Source of the DNA: Eledone cirrhosa
Taxonomy: Eukaryota
DNA length: 64,000 nt
Assembly: GCA_964016885.1 (NCBI GenBank)
Contig: OZ024751.1
Location: forward strand, 42,532,001 to 42,596,000
Direction: 5' to 3'
The notes under the pieces were generated by a model that saw only the letters and a program-made list of their open reading frames with translations, searched no databases and was not told the origin of the DNA. The position numbers and the translations under genes are program-made. Positions 25,948 through 55,470 of the stretch are shown one piece after another. Every line of letters starts with the position of its first letter. Within the stretch, counting starts at the first letter, position 1.

Positions 25948-28900
25948 TCAACAGACCGTCTTTGTCATTTGTTGCAATGTTCTGGGCTGTTTAATCCACT
26001 GGATAAGTTCTGCAATACTGACGATATAAACATCGGACATGTTAACCAACTGAGAGATAAATTCATTCAAACCTTTCAAGCTACGCCAGTTTGATGGGTT
26101 GAACCAGTCGTGCCGCAGATGAACCCCCAGGGGAATTTTATCTTTGTAATGAACAGCAAAATTTCTCAGGAGAAAATCTAAAGTATCTTTTGCAGTGACT
26201 GGGTTAAATAAACATCCGTCAGCATAAAGGCATGTGTAGTTTAATTCGTCTAGAAATGGCATTACTGGGACTTCCCAAAATCCGTTGAAGTTGTCAGTCG
26301 GACATTTTCCAACAGAGCAGGTCCCTCTCCAACCGAAATCTAGAGTGAAGGGCCAAGAATGATAACCTTGTTTGTAAATCAATGTTGAATCGTAAAGAAA
26401 ATGCTCTGTTTGCAAAATCTTCATTTGATCATTGCCCAAAGGAAGCATACTAGGAGAGCGCCAACCGATTATTTTACTAGCTGGTATACCAGCAGTATGT
26501 GTCATTTTAAATCTTTGGTTTTGTATGTCTGAAGCTAACATAGTTATATTGGAGTAGAATGAAGTGCCGTTTCCTTGAAGAGAAATATCCATATTGGCAT
26601 CATATAATTTTCTGACAAGACCATAATTGGAGCCCACATCTGAAACAAAATATGTAGCTTTTATAGGACACCTCCTCGGGTTTAGATACGATGAATTAAA
26701 CAGAGGGATCATGCTGTAATAGAACTGATGTGTAATAGGTCCATCGAATGTAAAATAAACAAACTGGGGAATATTGTCCTTGTTGGTACCTACATTGGTG
26801 CTCATACAACGACAATCAGGCAAAAAACAATTATTTCTCTGTTGGCATGTCTTAAACACACTGCTGTTCACAGGTTTTCTTTTAATAGGGATTTTCTTTG
26901 AAAATCTAGAGTTAAAGTTCTGATTTCCGATGCCAAATCTCGACTGAAAGTCTTTGTTAACTTGGTTAGTTTTGTCAACAATATTTGATGTTTTCCATAC
27001 TTGATCAGGTTGTAGAGGTGACACTAACACCTGTCTGTCTAAAGAAAAACCTGTATTTGATTTTACATTAGATGAGTTGTTATTGTTACTTCCGCTTCCA
27101 TTTCTGTTGTTTCTGCTGTTGCCAATATTTCTATCAGTCATTAAAGAACCTGAACTAAATAGTTCCTGTACCGTTAAGGTATCTAAATCGTCTCTGTGTG
27201 TATTAGATTCAAAGGTCTGACCAGGGAATTGTTTTGTTTGTGTTTTAATTTGAACAATTTGAGTTGGTTTAAAGGAAATTTCTGATCTATTTAGTATTGC
27301 AAGTTTTTCCTTCTTGTATGTGCTTTGTTCTGGGAAATCCTTTGTGGGTCTTTGGTGGTAAGTAGGATCAAGTCTTGGAAAATAACTCCCAGAATATTTT
27401 CTAGAATGGTCGTCTGTTTTTGTTGATTGTTTATAATTATATATTTTTGTTTCTTTGTTTTCCCTGTCATGTTGTAGGGAGACTTTAGTATTTATTTGTA
27501 TCAAGGGATCTTCTCTTGTTAATTCTTTAACACGTTTCAAAATGTTACTTTGATCATCAATCTGATTCCTGCTATGATGAAAGTTAACATTTCTGTCAAT
27601 CAATTCACGGTTCTTCGTCTCAAGCTGTTCCATTATTTGCATTGGTTTCTTTCTTATTTCTGCTACACTGTTGCTTTCTTGGAAATGTTTTATTTCTTCA
27701 TTTTTCACTCTTGTCTCTTTGTAATCAATCTGTTTATTTGGAGACATTCTGAACTTATCGGAAATTGAATCACCTCCAATATTATATGAAAACTTATTGT
27801 TATCTTCTCCTAATGCTGATATATTATATAATCGATTTTTCTTCGCACCATATCTCTCTTCGAAAGATGTTTTGAATTGTTTTTTTAATAGATTTTCTCT
27901 GTGAATATTAATATATTTATATTTCTGAATGGAATTTTCAATAAAATCATATGAAGAATGACATTGCCAAGATTTCATAGAATTAATCTCACTGATTTTA
28001 ACTGGATTTTTAACCCATTCCAACATTTGCTTAACAGTTGTGATATAAACATCTGATTTTTTCAAAAGATCTTGAATAAACTGGTCCATTGCTTTCAAAC
28101 GATAAGGATCGGTCGGGTAATTGTAAAAAAACCAGGCTGCATGCATATTTATTCCCATTGGGGCTCTGTTACCATTATAATAATCCAAGAAATTTTTCCA
28201 TAAATAATTGTAAGCCTCGTCATATGTAGTTGGTGCTACAGTACAACCATCAGTATACACACAGTCATACATGGAGTCTTTATCTATCACAGATACAACC
28301 GGAACTTCCCAGAAGCCGGGATGTTGCATTTGGGGACAGTCTGGGATTTGGCAATGAAACGGCCAACCATAATCCAATGTGAAAGGATATACTGCTTTTC
28401 TACGTCTTTTAGAATAAGTTAGAGTTGCATCATAAATGTACCCACCTTCTTTGAGGATCTCAACTTGTTTGTCTCCAAACGGTTTAAGGAACGGACTTCT
28501 CCATCCGATGACATCTGCTTCAGGAACCTTTCCCAAACGTACTAGGTTGTCTTTTTGTCCGAGTATTTCCTCTCTAACTTGAGCAAGATTTATATCACTT
28601 CGATGGTTTATGCTGTGAGATGCTATTTCCATTCCTTGCTTATAAAAGTCATTCACAAGTCGATAGTCTGTGTAGTTATGAGAAACAAATAGAGTAAACT
28701 TGATTCGACATCCGTTTGGGTTCTTTCTCTCGGCTGAAAACAACCTCCTGTACATGATGGCTGTTTGAAGGGTTACAGCATCATCAAATGTAAAATAAAC
28801 TATTTGTGGGAAGTCTTTTATATGTGTTCCATTCACAGGAAGTGAATCTTTACAGCAGACACAGTTTGGTGGGTAACAGGTGCGACTCTCTTGACATGTG

Positions 28901-28983
28901 CTACAAGCTATCGGTGAACTGGAGCTAATGATTAGGATATGCAGGAGGAAAACATAAAGGCTAACTTCCAAATATATGTACAT
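25948..28983 (-). CDS. Secreted tandem two-domain chitin deacetylase-like (CE4/NodB polysaccharide deacetylase) protein, single coding exon
   Basis: 1011-aa ORF with a hydrophobic N-terminal signal-like segment. Domain 1: CxPPxCxC, PQIVYFTFDD, EIASHSINH, GWRSPFL, YPFTLDY, FWEVP, NRAPMGINMH. Low-complexity linker. Domain 2: PQFVYFTFDG, GWRSP, WPFTLDF, FWEVP, PLGVHLRH. Confidence 0.93.
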   Translation of the reverse strand: MYIYLEVSLYVFLLHILIISSSSPIACSTCQESRTCYPPNCVCCKDSLPVNGTHIKDFPQIVYFTFDDAVTLQTAIMYRRLFSAERKNPNGCRIKFTLFVSHNYTDYRLVNDFYKQGMEIASHSINHRSDINLAQVREEILGQKDNLVRLGKVPEADVIGWRSPFLKPFGDKQVEILKEGGYIYDATLTYSKRRRKAVYPFTLDYGWPFHCQIPDCPQMQHPGFWEVPVVSVIDKDSMYDCVYTDGCTVAPTTYDEAYNYLWKNFLDYYNGNRAPMGINMHAAWFFYNYPTDPYRLKAMDQFIQDLLKKSDVYITTVKQMLEWVKNPVKISEINSMKSWQCHSSYDFIENSIQKYKYINIHRENLLKKQFKTSFEERYGAKKNRLYNISALGEDNNKFSYNIGGDSISDKFRMSPNKQIDYKETRVKNEEIKHFQESNSVAEIRKKPMQIMEQLETKNRELIDRNVNFHHSRNQIDDQSNILKRVKELTREDPLIQINTKVSLQHDRENKETKIYNYKQSTKTDDHSRKYSGSYFPRLDPTYHQRPTKDFPEQSTYKKEKLAILNRSEISFKPTQIVQIKTQTKQFPGQTFESNTHRDDLDTLTVQELFSSGSLMTDRNIGNSRNNRNGSGSNNNNSSNVKSNTGFSLDRQVLVSPLQPDQVWKTSNIVDKTNQVNKDFQSRFGIGNQNFNSRFSKKIPIKRKPVNSSVFKTCQQRNNCFLPDCRCMSTNVGTNKDNIPQFVYFTFDGPITHQFYYSMIPLFNSSYLNPRRCPIKATYFVSDVGSNYGLVRKLYDANMDISLQGNGTSFYSNITMLASDIQNQRFKMTHTAGIPASKIIGWRSPSMLPLGNDQMKILQTEHFLYDSTLIYKQGYHSWPFTLDFGWRGTCSVGKCPTDNFNGFWEVPVMPFLDELNYTCLYADGCLFNPVTAKDTLDFLLRNFAVHYKDKIPLGVHLRHDWFNPSNWRSLKGLNEFISQLVNMSDVYIVSIAELIQWIKQPRTLQQMTKTVC

Positions 28984-30049
28984 AGTTTATCTTTCTTTTT
29001 AACACTATCTCGCTAAATGTTCGTGTATAAACTGGAATGAAGGAAGTAGCTATCATGTATTATATATTTGTCGCTGTATATCGTCCAAACAACAAAGCTA
29101 AACTACTTGACTGGACTAAAAATTCCACAACAAATTTATTATATTATATATATATATATCTGTCTGTTTCTCTTTCTAACTTTCTGTCACTCTATATTTC
29201 TCAGTCTCTCTCTGTCTCTTTCTTGTGTGTATGAATAACCTGTGTACATTAATTAAATAGATACAATATAAAAAATGAAAAAAACAACAACTTGTAAGCA
29301 AGAGAACCAGCTGTAACCCACCCAGACAAATTTGTCCATCAAATCAAACTGACAACTCTTAACTTTGATCTCTGAGCCAACTACAACAACAATATTAATA
29401 GCAGGTAGCAACCGTGTTTTATTGTGAGTAGTAGTACATCATATTTACTATTTAAATACAAGTTGATTGGTGACTTCTAAAGATCTTTCTTTAATTTCTT
29501 TTTCCTTTTATGACTTTTTCTGATAGATGAGTCTATGAGAAGAGATGGAATTTTTGATGTAATATATTTAGTTCCTTGCGGCAGTTGTCTACCAGACTAA
29601 AATAATATACAAAATGAATTAATAAATCATTATTTTAAAATATTTTTTTGGTGTTGTTGTTTTGATGTTATTTGTGGTTTTTGATATGTTTTTTGTTTTG
29701 TTTTGTTTTGTGTGAGTTTTTTTTTTCTGTTTCTTTTGTTGTTGTTGTTGTTGTTGTTATTTTTTAGTAGGGTGTTTTAATTATTGAAGTCGTTATTGCA
29801 GTCTGAAGATGGTTGAGATGACAAGAACCTGATCTACCAGTGCTGTGTCTGTTATATTTCGAATAAATATTCTGAATGATCCAGGGTCCCTCTCTCTACA
29901 ACCCACCCCACCCCTACCATAGGGAGGAGGTGCAATTCAGTGCTGTGTGCTGTAAATAGTAATTCAGGCAATTAATATATAATTCCTTAGCTTGCAGTGA
30001 TGACCCCGACCTCAACATTGACTTGTCATAACAAGAAATATAATGAAAC

Positions 30050-53364: not shown

Positions 53365-55470
53365 TCTGGGATGGACACACGCGTATAACTTGCTGAGTAA
53401 GTTCTGTTTAAATTTCTATAGAAATTCTTGTCTGATAACTTTAATTTTTGTACCATTTTGTAGAGGGACTGCCAGGTCAAACTTTGATCTGGTCAGTCTC
53501 TCAAAATATTCTACGCCTTTAGGCGAAATAGTTAAAAAAAAAGTTTTTTCTTGTTGAAAAGTCAATATTTTTTTAAATGGCCGAAGCTTCTTCACCAAAA
53601 TTCGAAGGAGGAAAGGGGAAGATGAACTTACAGCTTCCCCCTGCCACTGTCACAGTAGCAGAGGTCAAGAAGATAGGTCAGCCAGAGGAAGAATTCTCTC
53701 CACCTGTTAACCGACAACTTGACGTTGCCATGGCAACAACCCAAAGAACCAGCAGCAACAGCAACAACAACAACAATGCGACGGACGAAAACAACACCAA
53801 TAACAATAACAATAACAACAACAAGACCAATAACGGTGACAACAACAACAATGATAACAACAACACCACCAACGACAACAACAACACAAACAAACGAAAT
53901 TTCTCCTTCGCCGAGACGACAAGGAAAACCCTCGACTATCTGCCAGTAGATATAACAAAAGCGAAGGAGCTACTGGCGGATGCGAAAAAATATATAGTGT
54001 ACGGGGAAAATGGTTCATTCACAATCCATTCCCCCCCGGAACTAAAAAGCCAGAGACTCCTAAACACGGTCATGTTTAGGACAAACAGGGTGTTTGCACT
54101 GACTCAGAAGTGGGCCAGTTGCAAACTATCCCTGAAAGGTCGGGCAGAGGTGGCGAACACCTACATAGCGTCCGTCATCTACTACCGCCTGACCGTAGTG
54201 CCCTGCCCAAGGGAAACCCTCACCAAGATGGAGCGCGCGCTCTTCCAATTCCTTTGGAAGAGGCGGGCTCCTATGGTGAGGAGATCCATCTGCTGTCAAC
54301 ACCCTTCGAAAGGAGGGCTGGGGATGCCATGGCTAATGATGCGTAAACACGCATTAAGGCTACGGCACCTCTACGTATTCCTCACCGGACAACCGGTGTG
54401 GGCCTCGTTTGTGAGACGAACCTTTCCCAGACTCGTCTCACTCACCGAGCTGCAATCCTGGGTCAAGCAAAGACCGAGAAAACTGGGCGCCTGGCACACT
54501 GAGTGTGCCCAGGCGCTCACCGCCCTCTGGCAGGCGGATCCGGTTATCAGTGGAGACTCCACCGCAACATTCTATAGAGGGCTGGTACGCAGCAGGTGCG
54601 ACGACGCCCTCGGAGAAGCCCTAGACATGGAGGAGGACGAACTGGCCAGCCTGTTCGGTAGGACATTCAGCCCGGGACCTATGGACAACTTCCAGAAGTC
54701 CCTGGCCTGGCAGTGCTACCGAGGGGCTTTACCCGTTCGAGAAAGGCTCTACAGACACGGGCGCCCGGGTAGGGACCCCGCCAAAAAGATCTGTCCCAGA
54801 TGCGTGTGCGACGAGGAAACCGTTGCACACGCATTGGTACACTGCTCGGGCGTAGCCGATCTGTGGGGCTATGTCGAACAACTGCTGTCAAGGGTGGGAC
54901 CGATCCGGTTGACCACCGAGTCTATTGTAATGATCAAGCCGCCTCCCCCCTTCAAAGATGAAGCAGAGGCGGTGTTTCTGTGCGTAATAGCCATGGCGAA
55001 AGAGGTTGTATGGTGGACGCGTCTGAAAGGACTGAGGTCGGGCACCTTTCTCTCTGGCCAACAACTGGTCCGTTTCTTCCGATATCATTTCGGAAGAAGG
55101 ATCAGGATGGAGAGAGAGGTGCTGCACCCGAGCCGTTTCTATGAAAGATGGGTGAAAGTGGCGAGAATGGCCCGTGTGAATGGGCCTTCACTCTACATCA
55201 GACTATAGGTGAGGAAGATGAAAGACCAAGGGAGCACCCCTTCTCTGTGCTCCTGAGGAGTAGGGTTGCACACTTTTTTCGGGGGTGTGTGCGACCCCCC
55301 AAGGCGCCTCCTCTCTATTGAGGATTTTGTTAAAAATTTTATTTTTTGTTATATCTTATTTTATTTTTATATTTTGTTATTGCCTCCTCCTTATTGAGGA
55401 CGCCTTTTTGTGTAAACTCCCCCCTTTGTACTTGTCCCACTTTTGATGCCCTAGTGGCAAATAAAAGAAA
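53365..55470 (+). mobile_element. Internally deleted Tx1/L1 retrotransposon with a single 543-aa fusion ORF (53577-55208)
   Basis: About 168 aa of ORF1-like, poly-Asn N-terminus is joined in frame to the ORF2 C-terminus (KLSLKGRAEVAN, KGGLG, CPRC..EETVAHALVHC zf-RVT-like). No APE or YADD motifs. (TATC)n on both sides. Confidence 0.88.

What the first reader, a model, noticed from the sequence alone, without database searches (positions are those of the whole stretch)
25948..28983. Intronless tandem chitin deacetylase pairing an active domain with a pseudo-enzyme domain
Seen: domain 1 keeps the CE4 Asp-His-His metal triad (TFDD; HSINH) plus RxP and the late His. Domain 2 keeps fold motifs and cysteines but reads TFDG, and DISLQGNG in place of EIASHSINH, losing all three metal ligands while the frame stays open. 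A ~365-aa polar linker with dibasic sites (e.g. IKRKP) separates them, and there is no evident CBM14 or LDLa module. Inference: the dead domain may serve as a chitin/chitosan-binding or scaffolding module, or be released by cleavage, in beak, radula or sucker cuticle. A 3-kb single coding exon in an intron-rich genome hints at retroposition or intron loss.
Basis: partly seen in the sequence, partly recalled or inferred. Interest (0 to 1): 0.75.

Follow-up and report, generated by a model that had tools for sequence, protein, structure and literature searches.

The report
Mollusc chitin deacetylase with disabled twin
This octopus gene encodes a likely secreted protein with one intact chitin-deacetylase domain and a second copy that has lost its metal-binding residues; clams, snails and other octopuses share the pairing and the disabled copy stays conserved, so it likely anchors the enzyme to chitin rather than acting as an enzyme.

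Summary
One 1,011-codon ORF encodes an intact CE4 domain (D1), a 365-aa disordered linker and a second CE4 domain (D2). D2 lacks all three metal ligands and also the catalytic His.

It is not an octopus oddity. 76 of 120 listed homologues have two domains, across cephalopods, bivalves and gastropods. The dead domains form one clade, and none of its 81 members keeps the metal Asp. D2 is under constraint: 76% identity to the O. bimaculoides orthologue, against 50% for the linker. In a paralogue lineage where D1 also lost its triad, D1 drifted to linker level (32-38%) while D2 stayed at 74-75%. D2 is therefore kept without D1 catalysis in the same chain.

Retroposition is not needed: 9 of 10 CE4 loci in this genome have unbroken domains. 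Cleavage is unsupported: IKRKP is not conserved and furin motifs are scarce. A beak- or radula-specific role does not fit the bivalve copies.

Ten literature searches found no description; Pfam sees only D1. Verdict: an ancient, apparently undescribed molluscan enzyme-plus-pseudoenzyme subfamily. D2 is likely a binding or anchoring module (untested).

The parts
25948..28983 (-). Single-ORF coding sequence, 1,011 aa, tandem CE4 (insect-type chitin deacetylase) protein
   Evidence: 69% identical and colinear with O. bimaculoides LOC106880611
28915..28983 (-). Likely signal peptide (about residues 1-23)
   Evidence: Hydrophobic N-terminus read from the sequence; helix 2-20 in the AF2 model; no signal-peptide predictor was run
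27955..28908 (-). D1: intact CE4 chitin deacetylase domain (residues 26-343)
   Evidence: PF01522; BmCDA1 5ZNS E 1.6e-55 and BmCDA8 5Z34 E 3e-50; pLDDT mostly 85-98
28780..28791 (-). D1 motif 1 TFDD (catalytic base D67, metal ligand D68)
   Evidence: roles from PMC6463723 passages
28603..28617 (-). D1 motif 2 HSINH (metal ligands H123, H127)
28141..28143 (-). D1 motif 5 His281 (general acid)
   Evidence: role from PMC5855634 passages
26860..27954 (-). 365-aa polar, basic, predicted disordered linker (residues 344-708)
   Evidence: pLDDT below 50 over nearly all of 370-708; 49.6% identity to the orthologue; pI 9.7; 0 of 5,000 shuffles open
26872..26886 (-).
   Evidence: IKSKN in O. bimaculoides
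25951..26859 (-). D2: CE4 pseudo-enzyme domain (residues 709-1011), member of a pan-molluscan dead-domain clade
26740..26751 (-). D2 motif 1 TFDG: base Asp747 kept, metal Asp replaced by Gly748 (Gly in 73 of 81 D2 domains)
26563..26589 (-). D2 motif 2 DISLQGNGT: both His lost; Gly804 (Gly in 78 of 81 D2 domains, Ser in 75 of 79 D1 domains)
26113..26115 (-). D2 Arg957 in place of the general-acid His (Arg or Lys in 46 of 81 D2 domains)

Best explanation
The gene encodes a likely secreted two-domain protein of an old molluscan CE4 subfamily, in which D1 keeps a complete chitin-deacetylase active site and D2 is a duplicate that has lost its metal ligands and likely serves as a non-catalytic module tethering the enzyme to chitin, chitosan or the chitin-rich matrix. 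Shown: motif status; a single origin of the dead domain by internal duplication before cephalopods, bivalves and gastropods split; constraint on D2; a remodelled rather than randomly decayed pocket (Gly at 748 and 804, often Lys or Arg at 803 or 957); a linker free to vary from 37 to 1,034 aa; and persistence of D2 where D1 has decayed. Inferred: D1 removes acetyl groups from GlcNAc by the usual Zn-assisted acid/base mechanism. D2, on a flexible tether, would hold the enzyme on the insoluble substrate or bind matrix partners, doing the job that CBM14/LDLa modules or the accessory protein CPAP3-A1 do for insect CDAs. The tissue is unknown; it is most likely a chitinous secretion common to all three classes.
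For: Motifs. Distribution: 76 of 120 listed homologues have two near-complete domains and 2 have four; named ones span Octopus, 13 bivalve genera and 7 gastropod genera. The triad is intact in 75 of 82 first domains and in 1 of 82 second domains, the exception being a reversed-order protein, P0118. The dead-domain clade has FastTree support 0.997 (81 domains) and 0.953 (89 domains), contains no metal Asp, and is sister to the D1 clade. Constraint, as % identity D1/linker/D2: 83.6/49.6/75.6 to O. bimaculoides; 84.5/55.1/82.3 for the second paralogue against O. sinensis; 87.5/40.5/70.2 between two oysters. Natural control: in the dead-dead paralogue lineage the values are 32-38/34-36/74-75, and this genome's member L014 keeps D2 with no detectable D1. 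Both domains fold with high confidence and match insect CDAs. Insect BmCDA1 needs an accessory chitin-binding protein (PMC6463723 passages). CDA-domain proteins occur in gastropod shell proteomes (passages).
Against: There are no binding, activity or expression data. D2 conservation could reflect a protein partner rather than a sugar. IQ-TREE gave the D2 clade only SH-aLRT 76.8 on a 66-domain subset, and the bootstrap run timed out, though it recovered the same clade. D1-only members exist, including Hyriopsis/Sinohyriopsis CDA isoforms and this genome's C5 copy, so D2 is not needed to keep D1. The shell-proteome CDAs were not shown to be of this two-domain type. Constraint was measured as amino-acid identity, not dN/dS.
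Confidence: 0.55

Rival explanations
1. D2 is a protein-interaction or scaffold domain. It binds matrix proteins or partners with CE4 catalytic domains, in cis or in trans, as a built-in activator comparable to CPAP3-A1 for BmCDA1.
For: D2-specific conserved positions lie away from the motifs as well (N968, G971, L972, T934, P909, L793). BmCDA1 is inactive without an accessory protein.
Against: A purely cis activator is hard to square with D2 staying at 74-75% identity while its own D1 decayed. The linker varies from 37 to 1,034 aa.
Confidence: 0.27
2. D2 is a metal-independent enzyme with changed chemistry, like the CE4-fold PuuE allantoinase, using the retained Asp747/Arg842 pair and a basic residue in place of the metal.
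For: Asp or Glu at 747 in 70 of 81, Arg or Lys at 842 in 78 of 81, and Lys or Arg at 803 or 957 in 60 of 81 D2 domains. PuuE is among the fold neighbours (PMC10967932 passage).
Against: The closest orthologue (O. bimaculoides) has Asn at 747, and 11 of 81 domains have neither Asp nor Glu. Positions 803, 807 and 957 vary widely. No new invariant polar set replaces the triad.
Confidence: 0.07
3. The protein is a polyprotein cut in the linker by a convertase, releasing D1 and D2.
For: The linker is disordered and basic; 61 of 75 linkers hold at least one KR or RR. Each domain survives without the other in some paralogues.
Against: This protein has no RxK/RR site and IKRKP is not conserved. RxK/RR motifs number 12 against 27.1 expected from shuffles, and 14 of 75 linkers have no KR or RR.
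Confidence: 0.08
4. D2 is a decaying relic, or the gene is a recent retrocopy peculiar to octopus.
For: D2 evolves faster than D1 (mean pairwise identity 0.40 against 0.54 over 76 pairs). The coding sequence has no intron.
Against: The clade is pan-molluscan, with near-invariant cysteines and core. A truly released D1 drifts to linker level while D2 does not. Unbroken CE4 domains are the norm in the family.
Confidence: 0.03

Closest known systems
Insect-type chitin deacetylases BmCDA1 (5ZNS/5ZNT) and BmCDA8 (5Z34), CE4
   Same: Fold, cysteine pattern and motifs 1-3 and 5 in D1 (PMC6463723 passages)
   Different: The insect structures hold one catalytic domain. This protein has no CBM14 or LDLa domain and carries a second, ligand-less CE4 domain.
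Sinohyriopsis (Hyriopsis) cumingii chitin deacetylase isoforms A and B (UniRef J7FHX7, J7FHI0)
   Same: D1 is 49-50% identical and falls in the same D1 clade
   Different: They have a single CE4 domain plus a tail and no D2.
CE4 pseudoenzymes BA3943, BA0150 (4M1B) and ECU11_0510 (2VYO)
   Same: NodB fold without a working metal or catalytic set (titles; PMC5855634 and PMC10967932 passages)
   Different: These are bacterial or microsporidian proteins. I saw no report of one paired in a single chain with an intact CE4 twin, and none is metazoan.
Other tandem-CE4 animal proteins (Strigamia T1JA58; unnamed P0175 and P0182)
   Same: Two or more CE4 domains in one chain; P0182 also pairs an intact with a degenerate domain
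   Different: They fall outside the molluscan D1/D2 clades, so they are independent duplications. T1JA58 and P0175 keep the catalytic motifs in every domain.
PuuE allantoinase (3CL6)
   Same: CE4-like fold put to another use; a fold neighbour
   Different: Only 13% identical. No replacement catalytic set is conserved in D2. That PuuE is metal-independent is recalled, not read here.

Membership tests
CE4 / insect-type chitin deacetylase (D1) | NodB (beta/alpha)7 fold, PF01522 | tested here: met
   Pfam 30.8 bits, above the 23.1 cut-off; Foldseek to 5ZNT/5Z34 E about 1e-27
CE4 / insect-type chitin deacetylase (D1) | Asp-His-His metal triad (motifs 1, 2) | tested here: met
   D68, H123, H127
CE4 / insect-type chitin deacetylase (D1) | Catalytic base Asp with motif-3 Arg, and motif-5 general-acid His | tested here: met
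   D67, R162, H281
CE4 / insect-type chitin deacetylase (D1) | Deacetylation of chitin or chito-oligosaccharides | not testable with these tools
   Needs an assay
Active CE4 enzyme (D2) | NodB fold | tested here: met
   Full-length alignment to D1; AF2 pLDDT mostly above 85 with the same order of elements. Pfam does not report D2.
Active CE4 enzyme (D2) | Asp-His-His metal triad | tested here: not met
   G748, Q803, T807; 0 of 81 clade members keep the metal Asp
Active CE4 enzyme (D2) | General-acid His in motif 5 | tested here: not met
   R957; His in 10 of 81
Insect CDA groups I/II (CBM14 + LDLa + catalytic domain) | CBM14 and LDLa modules | tested here: not met
   Absent in Pfam scans; the linker has no Cys
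Retrogene | Intron-less copy of an intron-containing parent | tested here: inconclusive
   The CDS is intronless, but so are the CE4 domains at 9 of 10 loci. A related clam-like gene has a likely intron in the linker (L019). No parent was identified.
Retrogene | Poly(A) remnant and dispersed location | tested here: not met
   No poly(A) tract in 450 nt downstream (weak for an old gene). Three family members lie on C11, and paralogues appear linked in six named molluscs.
Carbohydrate-binding module (D2) | Non-catalytic binding to a polysaccharide | not testable with these tools
   Needs a binding assay

The most novel reading that the evidence does not exclude
D2 is an unrecognised class of chitin/chitosan-binding lectin evolved from a CE4 enzyme in an early mollusc. 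Its pocket was rebuilt around two conserved glycines and a basic residue, it replaced the CBM14 module in a mollusc-wide deacetylase subfamily, and it works on its own, since a cephalopod-like paralogue lineage keeps it after losing the enzyme domain. It would be a missing organiser of chitin frameworks in shell, gut lining and cephalopod hard parts.
Probability: 0.35. Interest if true: 0.62.

Novelty: new variant of a known kind. Interest (0 to 1): 0.42.

Why it matters
Molluscan chitin frameworks (shell matrix, pen, beak, gut lining) are studied mostly through chitin synthases and CBM14 proteins, and molluscan deacetylases are barely characterised. A dead CE4 domain conserved across three classes, missed by Pfam, and kept even when its enzyme twin decays gives a concrete, expressible 300-aa target. 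It can be used to ask how deacetylases reach crystalline chitin and how chitin and chitosan are organised. If D2 binds chitosan or crystalline chitin it would be a new binding module of practical use. It is not a new system: CE4 pseudoenzymes and enzyme/pseudoenzyme tandems are known kinds.

Tried and rejected
Expression: no RNA holder was listed for this stretch, which is no evidence either way. The three runs laid were contigs of one sample and show only the DNA, so splicing of the linker could not be tested directly.

D1-D2 contact: the complex predictor was not available, so there is no verdict. Single-chain AlphaFold2 gave pTM 0.52 for the full protein and 0.60 for a natural short-linker homologue, P0069, with pLDDT 88. 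My rough expectations for P0069 were about 0.55 undocked and about 0.8 docked. This gives no support for a rigid interface, but it had no controls and is no evidence against one.

Other searches: the ESM Atlas did not answer. A search for short stand-alone D2-like proteins found one hit with intact motifs, P0174, at low sensitivity. No D2 exon was found in 30 kb downstream of the single-domain C5 paralogue. No CE4 similarity was found in the N-half of L014. The IQ-TREE bootstrap timed out. dN/dS was not computed because no orthologous DNA was at hand.

Rejected: cleavage at IKRKP, retroposition, neutral decay and a beak/radula-only role (see rivals). Look-ups of earlier findings gave nothing relevant.
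Full report
Observation. The window holds a stop-to-stop frame at 25948-28986 on the minus strand, whose ATG at 28983 gives 1,011 residues. Residues 26-343 (D1) and 709-1011 (D2) align end to end. D1 has TFDD, HSINH, RSP and MHAAW. D2 has TFDG, DISLQGNGT, RSP and LRHDW. By the motif roles given for BmCDA1 (PMC6463723, passages seen) and for CE4 generally (PMC5855634, passages), D1 keeps base, triad, Arg and general acid. Pfam reports one Polysacc_deac_1 stretch, on D1 only, and at most one stretch for four other two-domain homologues scanned. This may be why the architecture has gone unnoticed (inference). The best solved relatives are BmCDA1 and BmCDA8 by sequence and by fold. AlphaFold2 with a 73-sequence alignment models both domains confidently and nearly all of residues 370-708 below pLDDT 50. 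The linker is coding: 0 of 5,000 shuffles were open, its other frames hold 21 and 46 stops, and it is colinear with O. bimaculoides LOC106880611.

Distribution. The protein search gave 126 hits, of which 120 were listed. Counting the query, 77 of 121 proteins have two near-complete CE4 domains, 2 have four and 42 have one. Named two-domain hits come from Octopus; from Mytilus, Crassostrea, Saccostrea, Pecten, Mizuhopecten, Mercenaria, Ruditapes, Mya, Dreissena, Tegillarca, Sinanodonta and Potamilus (plus a partial Ylistrum entry); and from Haliotis, Gigantopelta, Babylonia, Nucella, Pomacea, Aplysia and Plakobranchus. One four-domain form is from Mytilus. With a looser length threshold, the triad is intact in 75 of 82 first domains (4 truncated, 3 altered) and in 1 of 82 second domains (P0118, reversed order).

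Phylogeny. In a tree of 210 domains of 240 or more residues (shorter ones dropped), the dead C-terminal domains form one clade of 81 with support 0.997. In a wider tree of 331 domains, which added the profile search over 1.84 billion representatives (best 150 listed), they form a clade of 89 with support 0.953, sister to the D1 clade, with two unplaced degenerate domains beside it (supports rechecked by split). IQ-TREE on a 66-domain subset recovered the clade with only SH-aLRT 76.8, and the bootstrap run timed out. No named non-mollusc falls in the D2 clade, but many records are unnamed and chitons were not seen. Tandem CE4 proteins arose independently elsewhere: Strigamia T1JA58 (two intact domains), unnamed P0175 (four intact) and P0182 (intact plus degenerate).

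Is D2 maintained? Identity for D1/linker/D2 is 83.6/49.6/75.6% to O. bimaculoides, 84.5/55.1/82.3% for this genome's second tandem paralogue against O. sinensis, and 87.5/40.5/70.2% between two oysters. Across the clade, 0 of 81 keep the metal Asp. That position is Gly in 73, the residue after the first His is Gly in 78 (Ser in 75 of 79 D1 domains), and Lys or Arg sits at 803 or 957 in 60. This looks like a rebuilt pocket rather than random decay (inference). The strongest evidence is a natural control. Four unnamed, cephalopod-like proteins (P0184, P0192, P0296, P0297) have lost the triad in D1 as well. Against P0184, their D1 is 32-38% identical, like the linker (34-36%), while D2 is 74-75%. 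Their D2 groups with this genome's L014 (SH-aLRT 98.7), an 895-codon frame that keeps D2 and has no detectable D1. So D2 is selected for something that does not need D1 catalysis in the same chain. Conversely, D1-only members exist.

Gene structure. Two own-genome searches each returned 13 matches at 10 loci (lower bounds). CE4 domains lie in a single open frame at 9 of them; only the C10 copy is split. The C23 and C1 copies examined (L007-L009) show acceptor-like sites just before the domain, while C5 and the two other C11 genes are single frames that include a hydrophobic start. Among five metagenome loci, L017 and L018 are bivalve-like single ORFs of 806 and 860 codons. L019 has D1 and D2 in separate frames about 3.9 kb apart, with phase-compatible donor and acceptor sites, so a likely intron in the linker. 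Paralogues report the same longest-contig length in Sinanodonta, Pecten, Mercenaria, Dreissena, Haliotis asinina and Mytilus edulis, and three lie on C11 here, which suggests local DNA-level duplication. An intron-poor coding region is therefore a family trait, and retroposition is not needed. Whether a linker intron was gained or lost cannot be told from these data.

Cleavage. IKRKP is IKSKN in the orthologue. Over 75 linkers of 37-1,034 aa, RxK/RR occurs 12 times against 27.1 expected, and not at all in this protein; 61 of 75 contain some KR or RR, as long basic linkers would.

Mechanism. Most likely (0.55) D1 is a Zn-dependent chitin deacetylase and D2 a tethered non-catalytic binding or anchoring module. 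This is by analogy with BmCDA1, which needs the chitin-binding accessory protein CPAP3-A1. Rivals are a protein-partner or scaffold role (0.27), cleavage into two products (0.08), a metal-independent enzyme (0.07; weakened by Asn at the base position in O. bimaculoides) and a relic or retrocopy (0.03). Presence in bivalves (no radula or beak) and in shell-less octopuses (established knowledge) points to a chitinous secretion common to all three classes. Polysaccharide-deacetylase proteins are reported in shell proteomes of Euhadra, Cepaea and Lottia (PMC6368272, PMC4023409, PMC3374290; passages) and in a Hyriopsis nacre-tissue transcriptome (PMC3544910, passage), without domain detail. I could not link these to the two-domain type, and their supplements were not read.

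Literature. Ten full-text searches (listings and abstract starts seen) showed no paper describing a molluscan tandem active/dead CE4 protein. PMC11871041, PMC13425148 and bioRxiv 2021.07.10.451900 had no 'deacetylase' or 'deacetyl' passage. The PMC3396651 passages describe the nematode PDAs with all five motifs conserved. The library lacks most subscription journals, so a description may exist there. CE4 pseudoenzymes as such are known.

Verdict. The feature is real, ancient and mollusc-wide, and apparently undescribed: a new variant of a known kind. The octopus-specific story (retroposition, cleavage, beak or radula) is not supported. The interest lies in the independently conserved pseudoenzyme domain. 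Interest 0.42.

Noticed in passing
L014 = G000:C11 about 50.79 Mb, and L015 = about 50.81 Mb (8 Mb from the window): A pair of paralogues about 13 kb apart. L015 has an intact D1 plus a dead D2. L014 keeps a dead D2 behind a Cys-containing N-half of about 500 aa with no detectable CE4 similarity. Likely orthologues in unnamed records still show a decayed D1.
   Followed up: yes
P0003 (Mytilus cluster), P0004: Four-domain CE4 proteins of about 1,400 aa in which all four domains are partly or fully degenerate at the triad; the last one belongs to the D2 clade.
   Followed up: partly
P0182 (unnamed ENA record): An independent intact-plus-degenerate tandem CE4 protein outside the molluscan clades, suggesting convergent evolution of the same design.
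   Followed up: partly
G000:C1 149.79-149.93 Mb (L008-L011): Four tandem single-domain CE4 loci. Three of them give an identical 352-residue frame at about 32-kb spacing: a recent segmental duplication or an assembly duplication.
   Followed up: no
window 500-5865: A 47-bp satellite, about 115 copies, 95% matches.
   Followed up: no
window about 5850-14880, + strand: Exon-like ORFs of a Q/P-rich gene that resemble KHDC4/BLOM7 (recalled, not confirmed; one exon gave no Pfam hit). It appears to end about 11 kb before the deacetylase gene.
   Followed up: no
window 7513-8712 (-) and 53577-55208 (+): Non-LTR retroelement ORFs: RVT_1 with a PHD finger, and a zf-RVT-like ORF with further fragments near 44.0-44.4 kb and 55.7-56.0 kb.
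   Followed up: partly
window 25480-25840: Two adjacent copies of a very high-copy short interspersed repeat, starting about 110 nt beyond the stop codon.
   Followed up: no
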